Part shown: in pieces, positions 1 through 9,598 of the stretch
How positions within the stretch are numbered: the first letter of the stretch is position 1
Layout: the number at the start of each line of letters is the position of its first letter
Virus genome (UHGV): UHGV-1944544
Length of the DNA stretch: 10,740 nucleotides
Reading direction: 5' to 3' (one strand)
Source of the DNA: a virus
Translations under genes and position numbers: made by a program
The notes under the pieces: model-generated
Seen by the model: the letters and a program-made list of their open reading frames with translations, nothing else
Databases searched by the model: none
What the model was told of the DNA's origin: nothing

Positions 1-60
1 GGATACTACATGCGCGCCGGGTTTGGCGTCGCGCTCCAGTTTTAACGGATAGGTAAACAT
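1..60 (-). CDS. hicB: HicB-family antitoxin, N-terminal fragment (gene continues past the window start)
   Basis: Minus-strand ATG at 60-58 translates to MFTYPLKLERDAKPGAHVVS, which fits the HicB N-terminal pattern (M-x-YP-[VL]...G...VS). It sits 30 bp downstream of hicA with an AGGAG Shine-Dalgarno about 7 nt before the ATG. Only 20 codons are visible. Confidence 0.55.
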   Translation of the reverse strand, partial: MFTYPLKLERDAKPGAHVVS

Positions 61-90
61 AGAGAAGCTCCTAGTGAAAAAGGCTGGGGC

Positions 91-273
91 TTAAAGCCCC
101 AGGTCCTTCATTATTTTCTTGCGTAGCGGTTCAGGCATTTCCTTTGAACCGTGGTCCGGGAAAACCGACCGCTTTCCGTTCAGGTTCACTTTCTGATGAC
201 TGCCGCCACCAGGCGCTTTCCTGAACTCTGCCCCTTGCTGGATTAACCAGCGTTTGAACTCTGAATACTTCAC
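91..273 (-). CDS. hicA: HicA-family mRNA interferase toxin (60 aa)
   Basis: Translation MKYSEFKRWLIQQGAEF...GSHQK...GKRSVFPDHG...EPLRKKIMKDLGL matches HicA hallmarks (MKxSEFxRWL, conserved His, RSV.P.H, EPLRK.I.K.LGL). GTG start at 273 with AAGGA about 5 nt upstream. Followed by the hicB fragment in the canonical hicA-then-hicB order. Confidence 0.85.
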   Translation of the reverse strand: MKYSEFKRWLIQQGAEFRKAPGGGSHQKVNLNGKRSVFPDHGSKEMPEPLRKKIMKDLGL

Positions 274-345
274 AAGTTTCCTTATGCAATTTATCCATCA
301 TGGGCGATAAGAATAGTAACACAAAAGATATAAAACACAACAAAA

Positions 346-359
346 ATGTTTATAAACAT
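346..359. promoter_or_regulatory. 14-bp perfect palindrome ATGTTTATAAACAT in the divergent region between hicA and the 506 gene; candidate operator
   Basis: Exact reverse-complement symmetry read from the sequence, about 73-86 bp upstream of the hicA start in AT-rich DNA. No convincing -35/-10 could be assigned; function is inferred. Confidence 0.25.
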
Positions 360-505
360 AACTTCCTTGTTTGGTGGTTGCGTTTTTGGAAAAGCATTTC
401 CGCATATGAAAAAACATCAGCATATGGTGAAAACAACGAAAAATTACTGATGAAATCACACACTGGATAAGCTGCCACGAAATCGGAAACCTTTTGCGGT
501 GAATC

Positions 506-2191
506 ATGGCAACGAAAGACAAAAACAAGGGCTTTCTGTCGGCATTGAAGAAAGCCTTCAGCGGTGGTGATGTTACGCCTGCCGATCCGGTCGTATTTGC
601 GAGCGGGCATAGCGTCGTTGCTCGTTCTGGCCTGTCCGCCTTGCGTCCTGGCATCCTGGGGAGCAATAGCGATGGCATGACAAGCGCGGCGGATACTGTA
701 TCTATATCGGCAGAATTACCGAGTGACCGCCTGCAAAAATACAACATACTGGAGACGATGGCGAAAAGCCCGACTATCTCCACAGCATTAAACATTCACA
801 TTGCGCATTCTCTGGCTCCATCAAAAAAAACAGGCCTCGCATTTATTCTCTCTCCGAAAAATGGGGCGGATAAGGAGGCTGTAAGTCGATGTGAGGAATT
901 GACCGCTGATTTAAGCTCAATGATTAATGATGGCCTGCCATCGTGGGCCATGATCATGGCTATTTTCGGTGTGTCGTATATCCGTCCATATGCAGAGCAA
1001 GGGAAGGGGATAACTGGAATTGAGTCGAGCTATTACACGCTCCCTCATTTCGTTCAGGAGTTTTATCGCGGTAGCCAACTTGTCGGATTCAGCGGTGATT
1101 ATATTCTGGATACGCATACTTTGCGCAGAGTTATAACCGAACCGTGGAATCTGGTTTCCATGAAAAACCCGTACTGGATGCCTCAGCATAAAGTAATGCC
1201 AGTAACTTACGGCACTAACGGCTATTCCTTGCTTAGTGAACAGCAGGACAAGCCGTTAATGGAGACGCAGAACTACGGTACGTCGTTTCTTGAATACAGT
1301 TATGAACCCTACCTGAATTTATGTGCCGCGCTTGCTGCGCTGAAAGCAACGCGAAACAACGCTGCAAAAATTGATCGCCTGATTGCACTCACAACGAACA
1401 CGATAGATCCGGTAAACGCGGCGAATTATACGCGCGGGGTCAGCCAGGCACTGAAGCGTCATAGCGACCTCGTAGCGCAACGGTCGATTAATTCTAATGC
1501 TCTCCCATCTGTACTTAACCATCTGATACCCGTCATGGGGGATGGGAAGAACGGGATCACCATTGATACGCAATCTATACCCGCAGATATCAGTGGTATC
1601 GAAGACGTTATGTTTCATCTCCGACAGCTCGCGGCAAGCCTCGGTATTGACGCAACAATGCTTGGCTGGGCTGATCAGATGAGTGGTGGACTTGGAGAAG
1701 GCGGTTGGCAGCAAACAGCTATCCAGGCCGCCTTACGCGCGAACTGGATCAGACAGGCCGCCCAGCGGACTATTTATCGGCTTCATGACATTCACCTCGC
1801 TTATAAATACGGGAAGGTTTACACCGAAAAAAACCGTCCTTATGACGTGCAATTCAACTCAATGAACACAGCTATCCAGGAAGAGGAAAACCGAGAGCTG
1901 GATGCGCGCGCCAACTTCGTAGCTGTCATCTCGCAAATAATGGACCAGATCCAGAACAACCCGAAACTGGCGGGTAGCGACGCGTTTATGCGTTATCTGT
2001 TCACCGAACAGCTTCGTATCGACGATGACACTCTCAACGTAATGATCAAAGAGTTTAAGGCGAATGAATCAGAGCAAAACAACGAGCATGGTATGTACGA
2101 ATCCGCGCCGTTGTCGTCCGGTGACGATCCGGAAAACTGGACGCAAGAACAATTAATCAACTTTGCAAAATTTGTGATGAGCAATAATTAA
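506..2191 (+). CDS. hypothetical protein (561 aa), first gene of a two-gene operon
   Basis: Long uninterrupted ORF from ATG 506 with a weak GGTGA Shine-Dalgarno. Its stop lies 13 bp before the next ATG. No Walker A or other catalytic motif recognised; the N-terminal ~80 aa are Gly/Ser/Ala-rich. A resemblance to phage portal proteins is speculative. Confidence 0.7.
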   Translation: MATKDKNKGFLSALKKAFSGGDVTPADPVVFASGHSVVARSGLSALRPGILGSNSDGMTSAADTVSISAELPSDRLQKYNILETMAKSPTISTALNIHIAHSLAPSKKTGLAFILSPKNGADKEAVSRCEELTADLSSMINDGLPSWAMIMAIFGVSYIRPYAEQGKGITGIESSYYTLPHFVQEFYRGSQLVGFSGDYILDTHTLRRVITEPWNLVSMKNPYWMPQHKVMPVTYGTNGYSLLSEQQDKPLMETQNYGTSFLEYSYEPYLNLCAALAALKATRNNAAKIDRLIALTTNTIDPVNAANYTRGVSQALKRHSDLVAQRSINSNALPSVLNHLIPVMGDGKNGITIDTQSIPADISGIEDVMFHLRQLAASLGIDATMLGWADQMSGGLGEGGWQQTAIQAALRANWIRQAAQRTIYRLHDIHLAYKYGKVYTEKNRPYDVQFNSMNTAIQEEENRELDARANFVAVISQIMDQIQNNPKLAGSDAFMRYLFTEQLRIDDDTLNVMIKEFKANESEQNNEHGMYESAPLSSGDDPENWTQEQLINFAKFVMSNN

Positions 2192-2204
2192 CCGGAGGGA
2201 AATA

Positions 2205-3203
2205 ATGCAATCACTGAATACCGTTACGGATCGCTTCTCCCTGGTAGAGAAAATCCGCAAACACACACCTCAGAACAATCGCAATTACGTTATCCAGTCG
2301 GTACGAGACACATTCAACTCGCCAGAAACAAAAGAGCGTATCGCACTGGGTGAGATGTATGGTTATTACGGTCATGGTCGCCGGGCGATGCACTATAACA
2401 AAACGAAAAGCCTGGACTTGCCGGAAGTCTCTGTTGTGATGGTAGATGGGAAGCCTGTTGTATTGGAGAACGTGCCGTCAAACAGGACTATCGACATTTC
2501 AATTGACGACAACGGCATTGTTACCCATACACAGGAAATACTGGATACGGACACCGGACGTATTGTTCAGGGTATGATTAATTCTGGCGCAGGTGGTTGG
2601 TCATGGGCTACATCTGGTCCAGATTACTCTGTATCCCTGGTAAAGTCTTTTCACGGTTTTGATTACGTAACAGTGCCTAACTATATCAGCCTCGACAAGA
2701 AAAGCCTGATGCTTGAATCAGCAGAAGAACGCGACGCGGCGATTCATGCGGCACTTATCGAACAAGGTTTTACCGATAATGCTGCTACGGATCTGGTTCA
2801 CCACTTTTCAGCAATGAAGAGTCAGCAAGCCATATTCGAATCAGCACAACGTGAAGTTCTGGAGTCGGAACTGATACATCTTGAAGTGGAAAATATGCAG
2901 CTTCGCGACAAACTACGCGACCAGGCCGCGATGATGGAAAGCCAGGGGGAGAACGCAAAGAAATCCCGCCGTATTTTGCGTGATGCTATCCAGGAAATGC
3001 CTGTTTTTATCAGCGCAGAACAGCGCCGGGCGCTCTGCCGTATGCAGTCAGAGGATGATGCACGCATTGTCGCAGCGATGCTTGAATCCCTGGGGGCTAA
3101 TGCCACTTATGGTCTGCCAATATCAGCCAATAAACAACAAGAAATACCGGTGAAAGAGAACAAGACGGTGACTCCGCTGATCTTTGTGTCTAAGAGGATG
3201 TGA
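2205..3203 (+). CDS. hypothetical protein (332 aa) with a predicted alpha-helical/coiled-coil C-terminal half
   Basis: ATG 2205 preceded by a strong GGAGGG Shine-Dalgarno (2194-2199). The C-terminal region (ESELIHLEVENMQLRDKLRDQAAMMESQ...) is heptad-like and charged. No family recognised. Confidence 0.75.
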   Translation: MQSLNTVTDRFSLVEKIRKHTPQNNRNYVIQSVRDTFNSPETKERIALGEMYGYYGHGRRAMHYNKTKSLDLPEVSVVMVDGKPVVLENVPSNRTIDISIDDNGIVTHTQEILDTDTGRIVQGMINSGAGGWSWATSGPDYSVSLVKSFHGFDYVTVPNYISLDKKSLMLESAEERDAAIHAALIEQGFTDNAATDLVHHFSAMKSQQAIFESAQREVLESELIHLEVENMQLRDKLRDQAAMMESQGENAKKSRRILRDAIQEMPVFISAEQRRALCRMQSEDDARIVAAMLESLGANATYGLPISANKQQEIPVKENKTVTPLIFVSKRM

Positions 3204-3316
3204 GCTAAAAGCTAGCTTAATTTTCTAACACAGTGTGTTTTTATACACTGTTGATCCGACGGCGCGTGATCGAGTAGGATCGCGGTCACTGCTCCGGTAG
3301 CGACTGCCAAAAAAGC

Positions 3317-3340
3317 AAAAGCCGCTGAGAAGCGGCTTTT
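3317..3340 (+). terminator. Rho-independent terminator downstream of the 506-3203 operon
   Basis: Perfect inverted repeat AAAAGCCGCT / AGCGGCTTTT around a GAGA tetraloop, with the GC core followed by TTTT. The flanking A-tract and T-tract make it potentially bidirectional. Confidence 0.55.
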
Positions 3341-3401
3341 GGGTGTATAAATCTCCGGACATAGATTTATACGGTAGATAGATTTTTCACGGTACTATCT
3401 G

Positions 3402-4361
3402 GTGAGTATTTTAAATTCAGTTTCAGTAACTTTCAACACTTCTGAGTATAAAAACAACACTGAATACCACAAAAAAATCAAAGGTCATCAGTTGAGTTTT
3501 TTTGCTCGTCATAGCGGTTTTCTTTCCCCTTCACATAGCGCCATTATTGCCGAGTTCGCCAACCTGGCAGGAGCTACCGATGAATACATGATCCGTCGCT
3601 CATATGCTGATATGTCCGAGATTACAGGACGCAGTATTTCTACTGTGCGCCGGGCATTTACCGAAGCGACGAAGTGCGGAATGCTTGTTAAGCAGCATCA
3701 GGTAGCGAATAACAATGCTCAGGTGTGTAACGTGTACCGGTTTACAACACAATTTCTCCACTTCATTCATGTAGCAATGGAGATAGGGAGTAAGCAGGGC
3801 ATCAAATTTGCCAACGCCACAAAACTGGTTAAGCAGTTGATTTCAAAGGTTCGTTATTTTTTTGAAACTGGGAACCCCCTGTTCAAATTGAACAAGTCCC
3901 CCCATGTTCAAAATGAACAGCCAATAGAAAATAAGAGTCACTCTATAGCCAAAAGAAGAGAAAGATCATGCGCGGTTCAGCCAAAGGCTTCACCAGCAGA
4001 TAGTTCTCAAGCGGATAATGGCTTGCTGGATAAAAAAACAGTAATCAGGGAAGAACATACCAACCACTGCCTGGCGGCAGCAAAAGCGAGAGCTGCAAAG
4101 CGTCGTTCAGACGAGGGGTACGCAAAACGGCAGGCTCTGTATCGTACCGCTGAAAAACTGGCAAAAAAATTTGCATGGTTACGTAGTGCTACCACAGTGA
4201 ATAAGCCCAAACGATCCAGCGCCCTGGATTTCTCTATGGATTATTCTGCTTCCCAGGGATGTGCAACCATCAATGAAGCATTTGACCTGATGAAACAGCG
4301 TGGCTATCGGTCTGAATTTGACCGGGAAGACTGGTCAATTCCGGAGGGCTTTCGGGGATGA
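3402..4361 (+). CDS. helix-turn-helix DNA-binding protein, possibly a replication initiator or regulator; N-terminus uncertain
   Basis: ORF of 319 aa from GTG 3402 with no Shine-Dalgarno. The first in-frame ATG is at 3588, where the nearest AGGAG is 15 nt upstream. HTH-like segment MSEITGRSISTVRRAFTEATKCGMLV, then a basic Lys/Arg-rich C-terminal half. The AT-rich 5' part contains direct repeats. Confidence 0.55.
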   Translation: MSILNSVSVTFNTSEYKNNTEYHKKIKGHQLSFFARHSGFLSPSHSAIIAEFANLAGATDEYMIRRSYADMSEITGRSISTVRRAFTEATKCGMLVKQHQVANNNAQVCNVYRFTTQFLHFIHVAMEIGSKQGIKFANATKLVKQLISKVRYFFETGNPLFKLNKSPHVQNEQPIENKSHSIAKRRERSCAVQPKASPADSSQADNGLLDKKTVIREEHTNHCLAAAKARAAKRRSDEGYAKRQALYRTAEKLAKKFAWLRSATTVNKPKRSSALDFSMDYSASQGCATINEAFDLMKQRGYRSEFDREDWSIPEGFRG

Positions 4362-4501
4362 TGTTGCGATTGACTGTACAATAACCGTGCGGCGGGAATT
4401 TCATCGCTCTAAAATGTATGTTAGAAAATTAAATTGATGTTTCTAATCAAGAATGTATGATTTATATCGTCACTAAAAAACAGCATCTGATAAAAATTCT
4501 G

Positions 4502-4530
4502 TTGATCTTTCTAATGTTCAGGCTTATATT
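4502..4530 (+). promoter_or_regulatory. Candidate sigma70 promoter (-35 TTGATC, 17-bp spacer, -10 TATATT)
   Basis: Hexamers read at 4502-4507 and 4525-4530. It lies about 250 bp upstream of the 4778 ORF and rha, and precedes the alternative-hairpin region at 4581-4620. Confidence 0.3.
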
Positions 4531-4777
4531 CATGCCGTCGTAGCAAATTCTGCGACCGGGTTTAGCAGCCTGAATGTTAGTGCGGACAACCGCAGATATC
4601 CGATATTGCGGTATTTTTGTGTCCGTAAAACCGCGTTACGCCCAAATTATGGTGGGGCGTGATGGGGAGGCTTCGGCCTGCTGGTTTCACTAACGCCAGT
4701 CTGCTAACCCCGTCACGTCCTGCCACCTGTTTAGCAGCGGGTAGCAGGTTGTTAAACCTGTTAGTGAGGCCGTAACT

Positions 4778-5002
4778 ATGGTTAATGCCAATCCTTGCTC
4801 ACGTCCAGAATTCATCTGGCGTTTTCACTCCCTGCAAAAACACTGCGATCACTTCGCAATTGCCGCAACTGAAAAAGAAGCCCGTTCTCTGATCCCGGAT
4901 CAGTATGGCGTTCTCACTGGTCGTTTCTCTACTTCCCCACAACCAAACACCAATCCCTGGTATCGCAATATTACCAATCCCGGCATTGTGGAGGCTCACT
5001 GA
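4778..5002 (+). CDS. hypothetical small protein (74 aa), translationally coupled to the Rha gene
   Basis: ATG 4778 with GAGG 8 nt upstream. Its TGA stop overlaps the rha ATG (TGATG at 5000-5004). No family recognised. Confidence 0.45.
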   Translation: MVNANPCSRPEFIWRFHSLQKHCDHFAIAATEKEARSLIPDQYGVLTGRFSTSPQPNTNPWYRNITNPGIVEAH

Positions 5003-5943
5003 TGGATATCTGCATTCTCGAAAAGCCATCAATGACAAGCATTGAGATCGCGGAGCTGGTGGGAAAACGTCATGACAATGTGAAACGCACTATTGAGACA
5101 TTAGCCAAAGGTGGCGTTATTGTTCGTCCTCAAATTGAGGTTTTCGAAAAAATCAATAACTTAGGACTACGACGTAGTGTTGAGGCTTACGTCTTCGAAG
5201 GCGAGCAAGGCAAGCGCGATAGCATTATCGTCGTCGCGCAGCTCTCTCCCGAATTCACCGCCCGGCTGGTGGACCGCTGGCGCGAACTGGAGAATGCCCG
5301 GGTACAGTTAAAATCAAAAGCCGAAATCCTGGCCGAAATGGCGCAAATGCATCTTGAGCATGAACGCCGGATCAACGCCGTTAATGCCCAGGTAGCCGAA
5401 GTATCCGCACAAGTGTCCAAAGTCGCTGAAACCGTCGAGCAGATCAAGAAAGGCAATATTCCGGAAGGCTACATTGGCTATCGCCAGTTGGCGGCAAAAT
5501 GCGGCCTGACTGAAGCCAAATGCCGCAACCTGGTCAACGCTTACCGGATACCCACTGATACGCATGAGTTTTTGACGCCAGAGGGGGTATTGTCGCGTCG
5601 TACTATTGTGGCCTTATCTCCCTTCATGAATGCCTTTACCCTGATGATGTCGGAGGCTGAACACCGAGGAAAACGCTGGTATCATCCCAGGATGGGGCTA
5701 TTTCAGGCCATTCACCATCCTGTGCCTGAAAGTCCAAAGGCAAACCTGTCGTTGCATACCGCCAGAGAGAAGATTAAAACAGGGTATGCAACCGTATGCC
5801 GTCGAGCATCCTGGCCTGAAAGTGTCTGGGTATGGCCCGAAAGAGGCTCACGGAAAAACTGGCGCACCATTCGCGACGGCAAGATCTGTGCGATTGATTT
5901 ACAGCCAGAAGATGTAGCAGCGACCGACTGGATTGTTAGTTAA
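5002..5943 (+). CDS. Rha-family phage regulatory protein (313 aa)
   Basis: N-terminal SIEIAELVGKRHDNVKRTIE matches the Rha-domain signature (...AE.FGKRHDNV.R.I...). GGAGG Shine-Dalgarno 8 nt upstream of ATG 5002. Confidence 0.8.
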   Translation: MDICILEKPSMTSIEIAELVGKRHDNVKRTIETLAKGGVIVRPQIEVFEKINNLGLRRSVEAYVFEGEQGKRDSIIVVAQLSPEFTARLVDRWRELENARVQLKSKAEILAEMAQMHLEHERRINAVNAQVAEVSAQVSKVAETVEQIKKGNIPEGYIGYRQLAAKCGLTEAKCRNLVNAYRIPTDTHEFLTPEGVLSRRTIVALSPFMNAFTLMMSEAEHRGKRWYHPRMGLFQAIHHPVPESPKANLSLHTAREKIKTGYATVCRRASWPESVWVWPERGSRKNWRTIRDGKICAIDLQPEDVAATDWIVS

Positions 5944-5999: not shown

Positions 6000-6320
6000 A
6001 TGTATGCCACGAAAAAAATTGATTTCACTTATTCTTCCGCCACAATTGAGCGGCGCTTCACCCTCATTAGAGAGTTGGAACTGTCAAAAGTCTGGTATCA
6101 AATTCTACTGGATGAAGAGTTCTCACTGATGATAATGGCTGAAAAAGAAGCAATGCCGAATGACCGGCATAAAGTCATTGCCAGCCTTGACCTGGTGACA
6201 AACAGATACTGGGAGACAGAGGAACTGCGTGAAGCGGGAGTAATTCGTGACCTGATGGAGAGTTCCGTTCCCCGCCGCTATCGTGCGGGAAACGAAATCT
6301 CCGTGATTAAAGGGGCTTAA
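6000..6320 (+). CDS. hypothetical protein (106 aa from ATG 6000; the ORF opens at GTG 5982)
   Basis: Open frame with a weak ribosome-binding site, starting only 10-28 bp after the rha terminator. Its TAA stop overlaps the stop of the convergent minus-strand gene. The call as a real gene is uncertain. Confidence 0.4.
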   Translation: MYATKKIDFTYSSATIERRFTLIRELELSKVWYQILLDEEFSLMIMAEKEAMPNDRHKVIASLDLVTNRYWETEELREAGVIRDLMESSVPRRYRAGNEISVIKGA

Positions 6321-6709
6321 AGCTCACCAGCACGCTGTTTTTCAAGCGTAGATTTAACATTGGGCGCTTTCCCTTTAAAAGAATGGAAAGTGCCACATTT
6401 TTCTGTTTTAACCTCGCGCAGAGCTTCGCCATCGGCGTTCTGCCATTGATGAGATAACGTCATATCACCGCGAGAAGGAACATCCAGCGAGTACAACGTG
6501 TAAGTTCCCCCCATCTCGGCATACTCCTGGAACACATAGCTCATTACGTCAGATTCAGTTTTCCGGTGCGCGTTATCGACCTTATTCCCATTCAGAAATA
6601 TGGCGTTCGGATAGATTTTTATATCAAACCTACCGCACTTCACTTGTAAATTCCCGGCGTGAGCGATCAAAGGGAAAGCTGCCAATAAAGCAATAGCTAA
6701 TCTTTTCAA
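6317..6709 (-). CDS. secreted (periplasmic) protein with Sec signal peptide, 130 aa
   Basis: TTG start at 6709 with GGAGG 6 nt upstream. N-terminus MKRLAIALLAAFPLIAHA-GN is a classic signal peptide with an AxA cleavage site. Mature part has two Cys (VKCGRF, TEKCGTF). Lies 20 bp downstream of the preceding gene. Confidence 0.7.
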   Translation of the reverse strand: MKRLAIALLAAFPLIAHAGNLQVKCGRFDIKIYPNAIFLNGNKVDNAHRKTESDVMSYVFQEYAEMGGTYTLYSLDVPSRGDMTLSHQWQNADGEALREVKTEKCGTFHSFKGKAPNVKSTLEKQRAGEL

Positions 6710-6729
6710 TTCTGCCTCCGCTGCGTAAC

Positions 6730-7350
6730 TTATTGCCCGTATTGTTTACACCATTGCTCTGCCATTTGTGGGGCTAAAGGCCCAGCCACTGCGCTGTATT
6801 CTGCTGTTTTGCTTTGCACGCATGAGGCAGATGGTTTTTTATTGCGCTGTTCCTTGAGTTGTTTTTCATAGGCAACGATGGCATCGAAACCAGCTACATC
6901 TTCCTCCCTCATGAACCCTTTCTTGATCAGAAACTGCTGACCTTCCGGCACCAATGCTAGAGCATACAACGGCTGCAACAGCTCCCCCAATCCTTCCCGG
7001 CTATAAACTTGAAACTGCATCCAGCTTTTACTTAACGCTGTCATAGTGTCTTTGGTGGAATAGCCAGCCTTGCGTATAGCCTTGTCTAATCGATCTGCTG
7101 AATACGCAAACAAACAGAAATCGCCCTTTCCTGTAAACCCCGGTTCAACCGGTTGCAACGTGATATTTTCTTTTTCGCAAAAGTCTATAAATTCATCAGG
7201 TCTATCGGTTTTATAGTCCCGCAATACCTTCAGTCCAGCCTCATACTTTGCAGGTAACGCGCCTGCATAGGCAGCATTAAGAGAAACTCCCCCCAATATA
7301 ACCGCGAGCACTGCTCCCAAAACCCTTAACTTCACAAAACCATCCTTCAT
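6730..7350 (-). CDS. secreted (periplasmic) protein with Sec signal peptide, about 207 aa
   Basis: Start placed at the internal ATG (7350-7348), which yields MKDGFVKLRVLGAVLAVILGGVSLNAAYA-G, a signal peptide. The 47 codons upstream in the track ORF are Phe-rich, AT-driven and look non-coding. Mature part has four Cys. Confidence 0.65.
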   Translation of the reverse strand: MKDGFVKLRVLGAVLAVILGGVSLNAAYAGALPAKYEAGLKVLRDYKTDRPDEFIDFCEKENITLQPVEPGFTGKGDFCLFAYSADRLDKAIRKAGYSTKDTMTALSKSWMQFQVYSREGLGELLQPLYALALVPEGQQFLIKKGFMREEDVAGFDAIVAYEKQLKEQRNKKPSASCVQSKTAEYSAVAGPLAPQMAEQWCKQYGQ

Positions 7351-7564
7351 GTAAAAAAACTGAAGTTTTATGTTACAAAAGCAAACATCTACGCCAAAAT
7401 GACCTAGGCCAAATTCAGCGCGAATAAAAAATTCAAAAAAATTGTTGACACTATTCTGGAAATCACAATCTGGACAAAATCCATTACGCAAACGGCTCCC
7501 GTTGAAGGTTCTTTTGACGACTAACTTTCAGCCGATGCGCGGTAGGGAGTCATAACGCCAAAGC

Positions 7565-7615: not shown

Positions 7616-8269
7616 ATGCAAAAGATCGCAATATTCAGCCTTTCTACTAACAAGCCGCTGATGGCTACAGCAGTCCTGAAAGACGGCGCGCTTGTAATTG
7701 ACAAAGTAAAGCCGCTCCCTGCATCTGCTATTGAACAAAAACGAAAAATTCCACCAGTAATTGCCGAGCTGCGTAAAAGTGAATTTAAGGTGCTGGTTGA
7801 CGAAATCACGCCAACCATTTCAGCCGGTACAGGTGCCAGCCAGGTAACATTAAAAACACGGCACGCCGACGGCAGAGCAGCGATCATTGTCGGCATGGAG
7901 AGATACCGGGAGCTGAAACTACAAAGGCTGCTATCCCTGCCTGACAAGAACAAAGGGGCATTTGAGATCCCCGACTCTATCGTCGATACCGAATACAACG
8001 GCAACGGTGAAGAGGTTTATCGAGTTAACTGGCAAGATATCCGACCAGAGCACATCCTGATGATTCTGTGCTGCTATGCAACGGTATACCACAATGTTGC
8101 CAGCGCGGATTACCTGAAACAAATGACAGGAGCGGTAGAGAAAGAAAACAAAGCAGGGATAATGGCCTCGTTCCTGTCCATTATCAGCGATCAAAAAGCT
8201 AAAGCAGGAAATACCCAACCAAAATCGCTGGCCGGGCAAGTAATTGATGAAGATACGGTGATACTTTAA
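7616..8269 (+). CDS. hypothetical protein (217 aa)
   Basis: ATG 7616 with GGAG 8 nt upstream. No signal peptide, no transmembrane segment and no recognised motif. Confidence 0.7.
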   Translation: MQKIAIFSLSTNKPLMATAVLKDGALVIDKVKPLPASAIEQKRKIPPVIAELRKSEFKVLVDEITPTISAGTGASQVTLKTRHADGRAAIIVGMERYRELKLQRLLSLPDKNKGAFEIPDSIVDTEYNGNGEEVYRVNWQDIRPEHILMILCCYATVYHNVASADYLKQMTGAVEKENKAGIMASFLSIISDQKAKAGNTQPKSLAGQVIDEDTVIL

Positions 8270-8541
8270 TCAACTCAGTAGCTTTGTTAACTCCCTTAAT
8301 ACCAGGTAGAAGAGTAACAAAAATACTAACGCCAGTATTTGCGTGGTCAACGAGGCGTTCATAAACAGAACAATTAGCTTTAACAATTCGAGAATAACGT
8401 CCATGTCATTCACACTATTTAATTTTTAATCTACAGCCAGCAAACAATGAAGCTGCCCCCCGCATAAAGATTAATGAAAGTCACTTGTTGACAGTCAATA
8501 AATTCAGTGCGGCGAAGAAACTCTGTCTATACGGATAGTGC

Positions 8542-8579
8542 TTGCATTTTGCCCTTTCCGCGTGTAGTGTGTATACACA
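8542..8579 (+). promoter_or_regulatory. Putative higBA promoter with a 12-bp palindromic operator (TGTGTATACACA)
   Basis: Perfect palindrome at 8568-8579 overlapping a candidate -10 (TATACA, 8572-8577), with -35 TTGCCC at 8549-8554 (17-bp spacer); an alternative pairing is TTGCAT 8542-8547 with TAGTGT 8565-8570. It lies 26-37 bp upstream of the higB start. Confidence 0.4.
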
Positions 8580-8604
8580 AGTCACGCACACGGATGGAAT
8601 TATT

Positions 8605-8886
8605 TTGATTAAGTCATTTCGCCATAAGGGGCTTGAACGCTTTTTCAAGACAGGTTCAACCGCAGGCATTCAGACCAAACATGCGGTTAAGCTACGCATT
8701 CAATTGACTGCTCTTAATACAGCTAAACGCCCGGACGATATGTCTGCGCCTGGATGGGAATTACACCCACTAAAGGGGGCGGACCTTAAAGGTCACTGGG
8801 CAATATCGGTAAACGGTAACTGGCGACTTACCTTCCGATTTGAAGGAGAAGACGCAATTCTAGTTGACTATCAGGATTATCATTGA
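8605..8886 (+). CDS. higB: HigB toxin (RelE/ParE superfamily, plasmid-maintenance-killer type), about 93 aa
   Basis: From TTG 8605 the product reads (M)[13 protein letters not shown]...[41 protein letters not shown], matching the HigB signature (MIKSFxHKGL ... HPLKGD..G.W.I.V..NWR.TF.F...DA.I..Y.DYH). GGATGGA Shine-Dalgarno at 8592-8598. The track ORF opens earlier, at TTG 8542. Confidence 0.85.
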
Positions 8887-8894
8887 GGAACACT

Positions 8895-9176
8895 ATGAGT
8901 CGTATGCATAATCCCGCGCATCCAGGCGCGGTTCTTCGTGAATATTTGGGAGACATGTCAGTCACAGACGCAGCTGCTGCATTAGGCATTACTCGCACGG
9001 CACTTTCCCGAATTCTGAACGAAAAAACAGGTATTTCTGCTGATATGGCACTTCGTCTGGAGTCCGCTCTTGGAACCAGTGCCGAAATGTGGACCGGTAT
9101 GCAATCCCAGTATGAGCTTTGGGTTGCTTCGCAAACCGCTCGCCCAAACATCCGTCCATTATTTTCCCACGCATAA
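8895..9176 (+). CDS. higA: HigA antitoxin (XRE-type HTH), about 93 aa
   Basis: From ATG 8895 the product reads [18 protein letters not shown]...[37 protein letters not shown], matching the HigA family (MHNP.HPG ... S...L.GK.GIS..MALRL...GTS.E.W). GAGG Shine-Dalgarno 6 nt upstream; the start is 8 bp after the higB stop. Confidence 0.85.
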
Positions 9177-9268: not shown

Positions 9269-9598
9269 ATGAGTTACAGCAGACTCGACGATCGATGCAT
9301 TGAAGACGATGTGCTGCGCGCACTATTCCATCAGGAGATGATCAAGCGGGTATCGGAGTATCACTCCGATAATTTCCAGTACACGATAAAAATTGATGAG
9401 GTTTATCGCTCAGACCTAGCGGCCTATCGCGCCTATGGCAACGCTGATTTGCGCTGGGTATTTCGCGTGCTGGTGGGCCATGAGTCAGAAATGGAAGAAA
9501 TGCCGGTAGGGACAACGTTAACTCTTCCTGACGCAGCATGGCTAAGAAACAAGATTCGCGATTACGCTGGCTCGGCACCGGAGATAGAAAATGCCTGA
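9269..9598 (+). CDS. hypothetical protein (109 aa); C-terminal part tentatively LysM-like / phage tail-protein-X-like
   Basis: ATG 9269 with GAGGAA 5 nt upstream. The C-terminal segment (YRSDLAAYRAYGNADL...MPVGTTLTLPD) resembles the tail-protein-X pattern as recalled from memory, unverified. Its stop overlaps the start of the next gene (ATGCCTGA). Confidence 0.6.
   Translation: MSYSRLDDRCIEDDVLRALFHQEMIKRVSEYHSDNFQYTIKIDEVYRSDLAAYRAYGNADLRWVFRVLVGHESEMEEMPVGTTLTLPDAAWLRNKIRDYAGSAPEIENA

What the first reader, a model, noticed from the sequence alone, without database searches (positions are those of the whole stretch)
506..3340. Tightly coupled two-gene operon (561 aa + 332 aa) of unknown function next to hicAB
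These are the two largest complete genes in the window. They are separated by 13 bp with a strong Shine-Dalgarno, share one downstream terminator, and carry no motif I can assign to a known enzyme or defence family. The second protein is half coiled-coil. Their position beside a TA module in an accessory island fits either a novel phage-defence or anti-phage cargo pair, or a morphogenetic pair (portal-like plus scaffold-like) of a satellite or prophage remnant. I cannot tell these apart from sequence alone.
Basis: partly seen in the sequence, partly recalled or inferred. Interest (0 to 1): 0.65.

Follow-up and report, generated by a model that had tools for sequence, protein, structure and literature searches.

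The report
Phage portal and head-protease genes
The two "unknown" genes are the portal protein and the head-maturation protease of a P1/D6-type phage that lives as a plasmid in E. coli; they are essential, already-annotated virus head-building genes, not a new defence system.

Summary
ORFs 506-2191 (561 aa) and 2205-3203 (332 aa) are the largest complete genes, 13 bp apart with a GGAGG, and a strong hairpin follows at 3316-3341.

P1 prt and pro are essential. Both genes are under strong purifying selection (dN/dS 0.04 and 0.10). There are no PADLOC hits.

One addition of my own: the known P1 capsid cleavage motif (AMLE|S) recurs four times in Pro's helical C-terminal half, and two of the sites are near-invariant. 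This suggests a self-removing protease-scaffold fusion.

Already known; low interest.

The parts
506..2191 (+). prt: portal protein (561 aa) of a D6-like P1-family phage-plasmid
   Evidence: PHROG 1497 'portal protein' E 1.8e-225, residues 1-560 on profile 1-549 of 549. PDB 9ums_C 'Prt' E 2e-167. 48% identity over 543 aa to P1 Prt. 93.9% aa identity to D6 portal, dN/dS 0.044. Annotated 'portal protein' in D6 and in plasmids.
2093..2104 (+). M530-Y-E-S533 in the portal's C-terminal tail: a cleavage-type motif (possible trimming site; inference only)
   Evidence: Motif scan. P1 Prt has ILES at 557-560, and P1 Prt residues 534-569 are not seen in the cryo-EM map (PMC12810830).
2194..2198 (+). Shine-Dalgarno GGAGG for pro, inside the 13-nt prt-pro spacer (2192-2204)
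   Evidence: Sequence read directly.
2205..3203 (+). pro: head-processing (prohead maturation) protease, 332 aa
   Evidence: 92% aa identity to D6 'head processing protease'. 41% identity over 323 aa to P1 Pro, E 3e-85. PHROG 1801 E 6.7e-154 (the family label 'tail fiber protein' is wrong). dN/dS 0.10.
2205..2717 (+). Pro residues 1-171: protease domain with the gp21/assemblin fold. Candidate catalytic residues are His57 (2373-2375), Ser133 (2601-2603) and Asp153 (2661-2663).
2709..2720 (+). M169-L-E-S172: predicted autocleavage site at the protease/helical-domain boundary
   Evidence: M 41/43, E 43/43 and S 42/43 in the family alignment. Same motif as the experimentally mapped P1 gp23 site AMLE|S. 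Aligns with the h-x-E-S column of the gp21 family.
2718..3107 (+). Pro residues 172-301: helical, scaffold-like C-terminal region with further cleavage-type motifs IFES (2832-2843), MMES (2931-2942) and MLES (3078-3089)
   Evidence: AlphaFold helices 173-186, 191-263, 271-278 and 283-300. Four motifs observed against 0.44 expected, P 0.00055. E294 and S295 are each 42/43 conserved.
3108..3200 (+). Pro residues 302-332: disordered C-terminal tail with a conserved L304-P305
   Evidence: pLDDT below 50. L304 and P305 are at least 90% conserved.
3316..3341 (.). GC-rich 11-bp hairpin, the likely terminator after pro (bidirectional type)
   Evidence: z = -5.0.
91..273 (-). hicA toxin gene (context; divergent from prt). 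hicB starts at 60 and runs off the window.
   Evidence: Pfam HicA_toxin E 1.3e-9. The hicB N-terminus matches the L010 hicB.
3402..4361 (+). repL lytic replication initiator (context, downstream neighbour)
   Evidence: Annotated 'lytic replication protein, similar to P1 repL' in D6. Pfam Phage_P1_RepL on the identical-length neighbour.

Best explanation
The pair is prt-pro, the portal gene and the prohead (head-maturation) protease gene of a D6-like member of the P1 family of phage-plasmids.

Mechanism:
- Twelve copies of Prt form the portal ring at one capsid vertex. The ring nucleates procapsid assembly, is the channel through which DNA is packaged and ejected, and is the docking site for adaptor and tail. 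This is shown for the P1 orthologue by cryo-EM and inferred here by 48% identity.
- Pro is co-assembled inside the procapsid. Its N-terminal domain (residues 1-171) is a serine protease of the T4 gp21 / herpesvirus assemblin fold. The fold is shown here on a model. His57 and Asp153 align with gp21 His85 and Asp168. The nucleophile is most likely the invariant Ser133, which is an inference.
- Pro cuts after Glu in hydrophobic-hydrophobic-Glu|Ser/Ala motifs. It removes the ~120-residue N-terminal scaffolding domain of the major capsid protein. The site is AMLE|S in P1 (mapped experimentally) and AMFE|S in D6. It also removes the N-terminus of DarA.
- I further infer that Pro cuts itself at four such motifs (E171, E212, E245, E294). 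This would release and fragment its helical C-terminal half, which acts as a capsid-targeting or scaffolding arm.

Expression: the two genes are translated from one late mRNA (13-nt spacer with GGAGG), ending at the hairpin at 3316-3341.
For: Identity of the locus:
- Megablast gives 87.5% identity to phage D6, over features annotated 'portal protein | head processing protease'.
- 120 plasmids of ~90 kb match, up to 99.8%.
- Synteny is lydAB-hdf-darA-ddrA-ddrB-(hicBA)-prt-pro-repL-icd-ant-darB in D6, in plasmids and on a 92.6-kb scaffold.

Portal:
- PHROG 1497 E 1.8e-225, full length.
- PDB 9ums 'Prt' E 2e-167.
- 48% identity to P1 Prt.
- P1 Prt is modelled as a dodecamer with crown, wing, stem and clip domains (PMC12810830) and is found in virions by mass spectrometry (PMC9024508).

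Protease:
- 41% identity to P1 Pro, E 3e-85.
- Foldseek top hit is gp21.
- Published HHpred places P1 Pro on 5JBL at 99.44% (supplement of PMC9024508).
- My hhalign of the Pro family against a gp21-family profile gives E 7.4e-5. It aligns the invariant N-x-R-x-Y, His and (with a greedier alignment) D-x-V-x-x-P motifs.

Function and selection:
- P1 prt and pro are both essential, EOP <3.4e-6 (PMC10695390).
- dN/dS against D6 is 0.044 and 0.10.

Cleavage motif:
- P1 gp23 site AMLE|SVAAEM.
- D6 capsid protein AMFE|SVAQ, at the aligned position.
- DarA h-h-E|A at residues ~66-69, matching the 1-69 segment missing in cryo-EM.
- Four motifs in Pro (P 0.00055), two of them near-invariant.
Against: - No Pfam or NCBIfam model recognises either protein. 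Peptidase_S77 scores T4 gp21 at 6e-112 but does not score Pro.
- The profile-profile link to gp21 is modest (probability 53-62%).
- That alignment places gp21 Ser140 on the non-conserved residue 137, four residues after the invariant Ser133. The nucleophile is therefore not pinned down.
- Protease activity of P1 Pro has never been shown with purified protein. The original P1 annotation called it a 'putative kinase/phosphatase ... activation of host protease'.
- No P1-type late promoter was found upstream of prt, so the promoter of the operon is unidentified.
- The window's overall arrangement exists only on a low-coverage metagenome contig. I cannot say whether this particular copy sits in a complete, viable phage genome.
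Confidence: 0.95

Rival explanations
1. A novel two-gene anti-phage defence or counter-defence cargo pair carried beside the hicAB toxin-antitoxin module in an accessory island.
For: - There are no Pfam, NCBIfam or PADLOC matches, so the genes look like 'dark matter' by those libraries.
- TA modules flank the region: hicA at 91-273 and higBA at 8542-9176.
- The dar anti-restriction genes are neighbours in related elements.
Against: - Both proteins have full-length, high-scoring orthology to P1/D6 head genes.
- The fold is that of a capsid protease.
- The P1 orthologues are essential for plaque formation and are found in virions.
- The pair is conserved in every D6-like and P1-like genome examined, at the same place in the late region. 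Accessory cargo would not behave this way.
Confidence: 0.01
2. Portal plus scaffold of a phage satellite (capsid-forming PICI-like element) or of a decayed prophage remnant, that is, not part of a working phage.
For: - The window is a crossover between two icd-ant modules that lie ~37-43 kb apart in complete D6-like plasmids. This arrangement is seen only on a 23-kb, 4.7x-coverage metagenome contig. It could be a deletion derivative that has lost about 40 kb.
- In relatives, hicBA or a TnpB gene is inserted just upstream of prt.
Against: - Both ORFs are intact and full length relative to D6 and to the PHROG profiles. They are under strong purifying selection.
- A 99%-identical Pro lies on a 92.6-kb scaffold with the canonical D6 order.
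- D6 itself is a plaque-forming phage.
- The junction falls inside a ~700-bp repeat at low coverage, which is typical of an assembly chimera.
- There are no satellite hallmarks next to the pair. The neighbours are repL, C4 RNA, icd and ant of the P1 type.
Confidence: 0.05
3. Pro is not itself a protease. It is a regulator (kinase/phosphatase) that activates a host protease, as in the 2004 P1 annotation, or a tail fibre protein, as RefSeq and PHROG 1801 label it.
For:
- PHROG 1801 is labelled 'tail fiber protein'.
- No biochemical assay of Pro is published in the papers I could read.
Against: - Published HHpred 99.44% to 5JBL.
- Invariant His, Ser and Asp, with His and Asp on the gp21 catalytic columns.
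- The GenBank D6 record for the same gene says 'head processing protease', while its RefSeq copy says 'tail fiber protein'. That points to an automatic relabelling error.
- No kinase, phosphatase or fibre fold appears among the structural hits.
Confidence: 0.03

Closest known systems
Escherichia phage D6 orf22 (portal, 'similar to P1 prt') and orf21 (head processing protease, 'similar to P1 pro'), GenBank MF356679
   Same: - Same two genes in the same order, with a spacer of the same 13-nt length.
- The same downstream repL.
- 87.5% DNA identity, and 93.9% and 91.6% protein identity.
   Different: - In D6, two small ORFs (orf24, orf23) lie upstream of prt. Here, and in several plasmids, a divergent hicBA module takes that place.
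- Synonymous divergence is substantial (dS 0.43-0.76), so this is a distinct D6-like lineage.
Bacteriophage P1 Prt (portal; PDB 9ums, cryo-EM connector complex)
   Same: - 48% identity over 543 residues, E 2e-167.
- The gene sits immediately upstream of pro.
- It is essential, and it is a virion protein.
   Different: - The N-terminal ~40 and C-terminal ~30 residues are not alignable.
- In P1 prt overlaps pro by 8 nt, has the late promoter LPpro 43 nt upstream and lies next to darB.
- Here there is a 13-nt spacer, no recognisable P1-type late promoter, and repL downstream.
Bacteriophage P1 Pro (predicted prohead protease)
   Same: - 41% identity over 323 residues.
- Same two-part architecture (beta-rich N-domain plus helical C-half).
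- Same GGWSWAT, GHGRR and G-x-DYV-x-PN motifs.
- Recurrent h-h-E-S motifs: 6 in P1 Pro and 4 here.
   Different: - The helical half is poorly conserved in sequence, and the internal motif positions only partly coincide.
- The sites at the domain boundary (E171) and near the C-terminus (E294) are the conserved ones.
T4 gp21 prohead core protease (MEROPS/Pfam Peptidase_S77; PDB 5JBL) and the herpesvirus assemblins
   Same: - Shared invariant N-x-R-x-Y, His and D-x-V-x-x-P motifs.
- Cleavage after Glu in a hydrophobic-x-Glu context. This is established for T4 gp21. For P1 it is shown by the mapped gp23 site.
- An h-x-E-S motif lies ~19 residues after the catalytic Asp in both.
   Different: - Only ~12% identity, and the Pfam S77 model does not score Pro.
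- gp21 (212 aa) has no long helical extension. T4 encodes its scaffold (gp22, gp67, gp68) separately.
- The position of the nucleophilic Ser does not align cleanly.
Protease-scaffold fusions: phage P2 gpO and herpesvirus UL26-type protease-scaffold polyproteins (from my own knowledge, not tested here)
   Same: - N-terminal assemblin-like protease followed by a helical scaffold or capsid-binding region.
- The two parts are separated by autocleavage.
   Different: - No detectable sequence relationship; no Pfam hit to the gpO family.
- A scaffolding role for Pro's C-terminal half is inferred, not shown.
- The P1 literature assigns scaffolding to the capsid protein's N-terminal domain and to DarA.

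Membership tests
P1-family portal protein (Prt) | Full-length sequence homology to P1 Prt, whose structure as the portal dodecamer is solved | tested here: met
   phmmer against PDB: 9ums_C 'Prt' E 2e-167, query 30-528 on chain 42-541. BLASTP gives 48% identity over 543 aa.
P1-family portal protein (Prt) | Membership of the phage portal orthologous group, covering the whole profile | tested here: met
   PHROG 1497 'portal protein' E 1.8e-225, protein 1-560 on profile 1-549 of 549.
P1-family portal protein (Prt) | Conserved gene position immediately upstream of pro in the late region of a P1/D6-type genome | tested here: met
   D6, four plasmids, a 92.6-kb scaffold and P1 itself.
P1-family portal protein (Prt) | Match to a curated Pfam portal family | tested here: not met
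   No Pfam-A or NCBIfam hit at E <= 0.1 / 0.01. The P1-type portal is not covered by those libraries.
P1-family portal protein (Prt) | Forms a 12-mer ring with crown, wing, stem and clip domains at a unique capsid vertex | not tested
   I made no model of this protein. This is shown only for the P1 orthologue (PMC12810830).
Prohead maturation protease of the gp21/assemblin fold (P1 Pro; MEROPS S77-like) | Orthology to P1 Pro / D6 head processing protease | tested here: met
   41% identity over 323 aa, E 3e-85 to P1 Pro. 91.6% identity to D6 orf21. 275 homologues found, named 'head processing protein' wherever a source names them.
Prohead maturation protease of the gp21/assemblin fold (P1 Pro; MEROPS S77-like) | Assemblin-type protease fold | tested here: met
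   [not shown]
Prohead maturation protease of the gp21/assemblin fold (P1 Pro; MEROPS S77-like) | Recognised by the Pfam Peptidase_S77 model | tested here: not met
   PF03420 scores T4 gp21 at E 6e-112. It gives nothing for Pro residues 1-172 or for the Rb1 homologue, even at E <= 10.
Prohead maturation protease of the gp21/assemblin fold (P1 Pro; MEROPS S77-like) | Profile-profile sequence relationship to the gp21 family | tested here: met
   hhalign A1 against A2 (10 gp21-family proteins): E 7.4e-5, probability 62%, 87 columns. N-domain only with a greedier alignment: E 1.4e-4, 133 columns. This is modest support. Published HHpred for P1 Pro gives 99.44% to 5JBL.
Prohead maturation protease of the gp21/assemblin fold (P1 Pro; MEROPS S77-like) | Catalytic His conserved at the family's position | tested here: met
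   His57 is invariant in 43 homologues. It aligns with the invariant gp21 His85, in LGE..H context in both families.
Prohead maturation protease of the gp21/assemblin fold (P1 Pro; MEROPS S77-like) | Catalytic Ser conserved at the family's position | tested here: inconclusive
   An invariant Ser133 (GGWSWAT) exists. However, hhalign puts gp21 Ser140 on the non-conserved residue 137. The tools returned no residue-level structural superposition.
Prohead maturation protease of the gp21/assemblin fold (P1 Pro; MEROPS S77-like) | Third acidic residue and the following D-x-V-x-x-P motif | tested here: met
   Asp153, Val155, Pro158 and Asn159 are invariant or near-invariant in Pro. They align with the invariant gp21 Asp168, Val170, Pro173 and Ser174 with identical spacing. 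This part of the alignment is low-confidence.
Prohead maturation protease of the gp21/assemblin fold (P1 Pro; MEROPS S77-like) | Substrates carry the cleavage motif (after Glu, preceded by hydrophobic residues) | tested here: met
   The mapped P1 gp23 site is AMLE|S (PMC9024508; sequence). The D6 capsid protein has AMFE|S at the aligned position. DarA has h-h-E|A at ~66-69 in both lineages. Sequence evidence only.
Prohead maturation protease of the gp21/assemblin fold (P1 Pro; MEROPS S77-like) | Proteolytic activity on capsid protein | not testable with these tools
   This needs biochemistry or genetics.
Known or candidate anti-phage defence systems (PADLOC-DB) | Either protein matches a defence-system HMM | tested here: not met
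   0 families for both proteins at E <= 0.01.
Protease-scaffold fusion (P2 gpO-like architecture) | N-terminal protease domain, C-terminal helical scaffold region, and a conserved autocleavage site between them | tested here: inconclusive
   The architecture is present. A near-invariant M-x-E-S lies at the domain boundary, and the motif is enriched in the helical half. There is no sequence homology to gpO, and neither cleavage nor scaffolding has been demonstrated.

The most novel reading that the evidence does not exclude
Pro may be a self-destructing protease-scaffold fusion.
- Its helical C-terminal half (residues 172-301) would be the separate scaffold that P1-family phages are said to lack.
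- That half would be targeted to the procapsid interior through the conserved C-terminal tail.
- After assembly it would be cut off and chopped into 33-49-residue peptides at the conserved h-h-E|S sites (E171, E212, E245, E294). These are the same kind of site that Pro cuts in the capsid protein and DarA.
- The portal's C-terminal tail (E532|S533) may be trimmed in the same way.
Probability: 0.35. Interest if true: 0.3.

Novelty: already known. Interest (0 to 1): 0.08.

Why it matters
It matters mostly as a correction. The genes are routine, essential head-morphogenesis genes of a common class of E. coli phage-plasmids, so the locus should not be pursued as a defence-system candidate.

Two smaller points have practical value.
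- Pfam, NCBIfam and PADLOC are blind to the P1-type portal and protease. RefSeq and PHROG 1801 mislabel the protease as 'tail fiber protein'. Automated pipelines will therefore keep flagging this pair as unknown or wrong.
- The conserved cleavage-type motifs in Pro, the capsid protein, DarA and the portal tail give a simple, testable model. It covers how P1-family heads are cleared of internal protein, and whether Pro supplies scaffolding.

Tried and rejected
- Pfam, NCBIfam and PADLOC scans of both proteins gave nothing.
- phmmer and a family profile of Pro against PDB sequences gave only coiled-coil noise such as syntaxin and stathmin.
- hhalign of the Pro family against the single T4 gp21 sequence gave a meaningless 15-column hit. 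It became informative only after I built a 10-member gp21-family alignment.
- I tried the Xanthomonas phage Rb1 'prohead core protein protease' as a bridge to Pfam S77. It matches Pro (E 2e-12) but has no Pfam hit itself.
- A position weight matrix from nine annotated P1 late promoters found no site upstream of prt in the window, in D6 or in the 92-kb scaffold. The sigma-70 scan also found none in 274-505 on the + strand. The operon's promoter stays unidentified.
- The exact Pro protein is not in the contig index.
- The P1 genome paper (PMC523184) is not held.
- I considered a satellite or remnant origin and the defence reading, and rejected both (see rivals).
- I did not model the portal, because a 48%-identical solved structure exists.
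Full report
**Observation**

The window holds ORFs at 506-2191 (+, 561 aa) and 2205-3203 (+, 332 aa). They are its two longest complete ORFs. The spacer is 13 nt (CCGGAGGGAAATA), with GGAGG 6 nt before the second ATG.

An 11-bp GC-rich hairpin at 3316-3341 follows the second gene (z = -5.0 against shuffles). The pattern scan scores it as a terminator only on the minus strand, because on the + strand just four U follow the GC core. hicA is complete at 91-273 on the minus strand (Pfam E 1.3e-9). Only the first 20 codons of hicB lie inside the window.

The AlphaFold model of the second protein is globular to residue ~165 and then almost wholly helical to ~300.

**What the locus is**

- PHROGs places protein 1 in family 1497, 'portal protein', over the whole profile (E 1.8e-225). 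It places protein 2 in family 1801 (E 6.7e-154).
- The DNA is 87.5% identical to Escherichia phage D6, over the features 'portal protein | head processing protease'.
- It matches 120 plasmids of about 90 kb from Escherichia, Salmonella and Shigella, four of them at 99% or more.
- In D6 the genes are orf22 ('similar to P1 gene prt') and orf21 ('similar to P1 gene pro'). The order is lydA-lydB-hdf-darA-ddrA-ddrB-orf24-orf23-prt-pro-repL-icd-ant-...-darB.
- The nearly identical plasmids, and a 92.6-kb metagenome scaffold carrying a 99%-identical Pro, have the same order. In them a divergent hicBA module replaces orf24/orf23. One relative has in addition a TnpB gene between hicA and prt.
- Downstream in the window lie repL (3402-4361), the C4 antisense RNA and its a1/b1 targets (Rfam), icd (4778-5002) and an ant/Rha gene (5002-5943).

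This is the late/immunity region of a P1-family phage-plasmid, not a chromosomal accessory island.

**Portal**

- Protein 1 matches one solved structure, 9ums chain C 'Prt', at E 2e-167. It is 48% identical to P1 Prt over 543 residues.
- The paper that describes the P1 cryo-EM structure models Prt as the dodecameric portal, with crown, wing, stem and clip domains, bound by the adaptor PmgC (PMC12810830).
- Prt is a virion protein by mass spectrometry (PMC9024508).
- prt knock-down abolishes plaque formation (EOP <3.4e-6, PMC10695390).
- Against the D6 orthologue the gene shows dN/dS 0.044.

**Protease**

- Protein 2 is 91.6% identical to the D6 'head processing protease' (dN/dS 0.10). It is 41% identical to P1 Pro (E 3e-85).
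- 275 homologues were found, on phage-plasmid-sized contigs from many Enterobacterales. They are named 'head processing protein' wherever a source names them.
- Sequence searches against PDB gave only coiled-coil noise.
- Foldseek's three best hits are the three 5jbl chains.
- This agrees with a published HHpred result for P1 Pro (5JBL_A, 99.44%; supplement of PMC9024508).
- Pfam Peptidase_S77 does not score Pro, so the relationship is at superfamily or fold level.

I built a 10-member gp21-family alignment from the phage collection. hhalign against the Pro family gave E 7.4e-5.
- The invariant Pro residues N24, R26, Y28 and H57 fall on the invariant gp21 residues N53, R55, Y57 and H85.
- With a greedier alignment, D153, V155, P158 and N159 fall on D168, V170, P173 and S174.
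- The serine is not resolved. gp21 S140 is placed on the non-conserved residue 137, four residues after Pro's invariant S133 in GGWSWAT.

P1 pro is essential. Pro is held responsible for removing 120 residues from the capsid protein gp23 and the N-terminus of DarA.

**A mechanistic addition**

- The mapped P1 gp23 cleavage lies between E120 and S121. In sequence this is NKAMLE|SVAAEM.
- The D6 capsid protein has GKAMFE|SVAQ at the aligned position.
- DarA has DLLE|A (P1, 66-69) and AMFE|A (D6-like, 63-66). This matches the 1-69 segment absent from the P1 map.
- The same hydrophobic-hydrophobic-E-S motif occurs four times in the window's Pro: 169-172, 210-213, 243-246 and 292-295. It occurs six times in P1 Pro.
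- Shuffles of the window's Pro give 0.44 on average, P = 0.00055. The first and last sites are near-invariant across 43 homologues (E171 43/43, S172 42/43, E294 42/43, S295 42/43).
- In eight of ten gp21-family proteins an h-x-E-S motif lies ~19 residues after the catalytic Asp, in the column that aligns with Pro's MLES.

I infer that Pro cuts itself at the domain boundary and within its helical half. The helical half would then be a transient capsid-targeting or scaffolding arm, as in protease-scaffold fusions such as P2 gpO (the comparison is from my own knowledge). The portal tail also carries one such motif (GMYE|S, 530-533). The P1 portal's last 36 residues are not seen in the map. None of this is demonstrated.

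**Rival readings**

- *Defence pair.* No PADLOC hit. The genes are core, essential and syntenic in all relatives.
- *Satellite or remnant.* The genes are intact and constrained. The window as a whole, however, is unusual.
  - Positions 2-5707 and 4988/5129-10740 correspond to two places 37-43 kb apart, on the same strand, in complete D6-like plasmids. The join is inside a ~700-bp repeat formed by two icd-ant modules.
  - No PLSDB plasmid or complete E. coli genome has this join.
  - It is found on one 23-kb metagenome contig at 4.7x coverage.
  - It may be a real deletion derivative or an assembly chimera. Either way it does not change what prt and pro are.
- *Kinase/phosphatase or tail fibre.* These labels come from the 2004 P1 note and from an automatic RefSeq/PHROG name. 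The fold and motif evidence contradicts them.

**What remains open**

- The promoter. P1 has the late promoter LPpro 43 nt upstream of prt. A matrix built from nine P1 late promoters finds nothing upstream of prt here, in D6 or in the 92-kb scaffold.
- The same matrix finds a strong site at 8468-8486 on the minus strand (18.9 bits, 0 of 200 shuffles). It is homologous to P1's bidirectional LP26/LPpmgL region.

**Verdict**

The 'unknown function / possible new defence system' reading is not supported. The 'portal-like plus scaffold-like morphogenetic pair' reading is essentially right, with the second gene being the prohead protease. The pair is already known and annotated in public records, so interest is low. 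The only mildly new element is the proposed autocleavage and scaffold role of Pro's C-terminal half.

Noticed in passing
window 4988-5707 (junction zone inside ant, 5002-5943); whole window: The window reads as a crossover between the two icd-ant modules of D6-like phage-plasmids. The left part (2-5707) and the right part (4988/5129-10740) lie 37-43 kb apart on the same strand in complete plasmids. No PLSDB plasmid or complete E. coli genome has the join. It occurs on one 23-kb metagenome contig at 4.7x coverage (ERZ1758143 NODE_1108). It is either a ~40-kb deletion variant or a repeat-induced misassembly.
   Followed up: partly
window 8468-8486, minus strand: A strong P1-type late promoter (-22 box AAGTGACTT plus -10) scores 18.9 bits, against 18.5-22.9 for P1's own nine, and 0 of 200 shuffles reach it. 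It is homologous to P1's bidirectional LP26/LPpmgL region. Its strong direction points left, antisense to ORF 7616-8269 and towards the minus-strand genes at 6317-7491. higBA sits between it and the gene-26 homologue. Unexplained.
   Followed up: partly
window 4524-4576 and 4645-4730, + strand: Rfam finds the C4 antisense RNA (70 bits) and its a1/b1 target element (53.9 bits) upstream of icd-ant. This is the P1-type immI immunity switch. Here it is placed after repL rather than before kilA-repL as in P1.
   Followed up: no
window 2205-3203 and public records (NC_050154, NC_005856, NC_031129, PHROG 1801): RefSeq copies of P1-family genomes and PHROG 1801 label the Pro orthologue 'tail fiber protein'. 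The corresponding GenBank records say 'head processing protease' or 'Pro'. This is a propagated annotation error.
   Followed up: yes
window 274-505; L002 7573-8742: In Escherichia marmotae plasmid pRHBSTW-00605_3, a TnpB (RNA-guided endonuclease) gene is inserted between hicA and prt. In this window the same intergenic region is only 232 bp with no such insertion. The prt upstream region seems to be an insertion hotspot (orf23/24 in D6, hicBA here, hicBA plus tnpB there).
   Followed up: no
window 8542-9176: A higB (RelE-like, Pfam E 1.3e-20) and higA (HTH_3) toxin-antitoxin pair lies directly upstream of a baseplate gene homologous to P1 gene 26 (9269-9598, PHROG 1269). It is a second TA module embedded in the structural gene region.
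   Followed up: no
window 2093-2104 (Prt residues 530-533): The portal's C-terminal tail carries one capsid-protease-type motif (GMYE|S). P1 Prt has ILE|S at 557-560, and its last 36 residues are invisible in the cryo-EM map. The portal tail may be trimmed by Pro.
   Followed up: no
window 6317-6709 and 6730-7491, minus strand: Two conserved minus-strand genes have no family assignment in Pfam, NCBIfam or PADLOC. The 130-aa product starts with a signal-peptide-like MKRLAIALLAAFPLIAHA. Their function is unknown, and they lie downstream of the late-promoter-like site at 8486.
   Followed up: no
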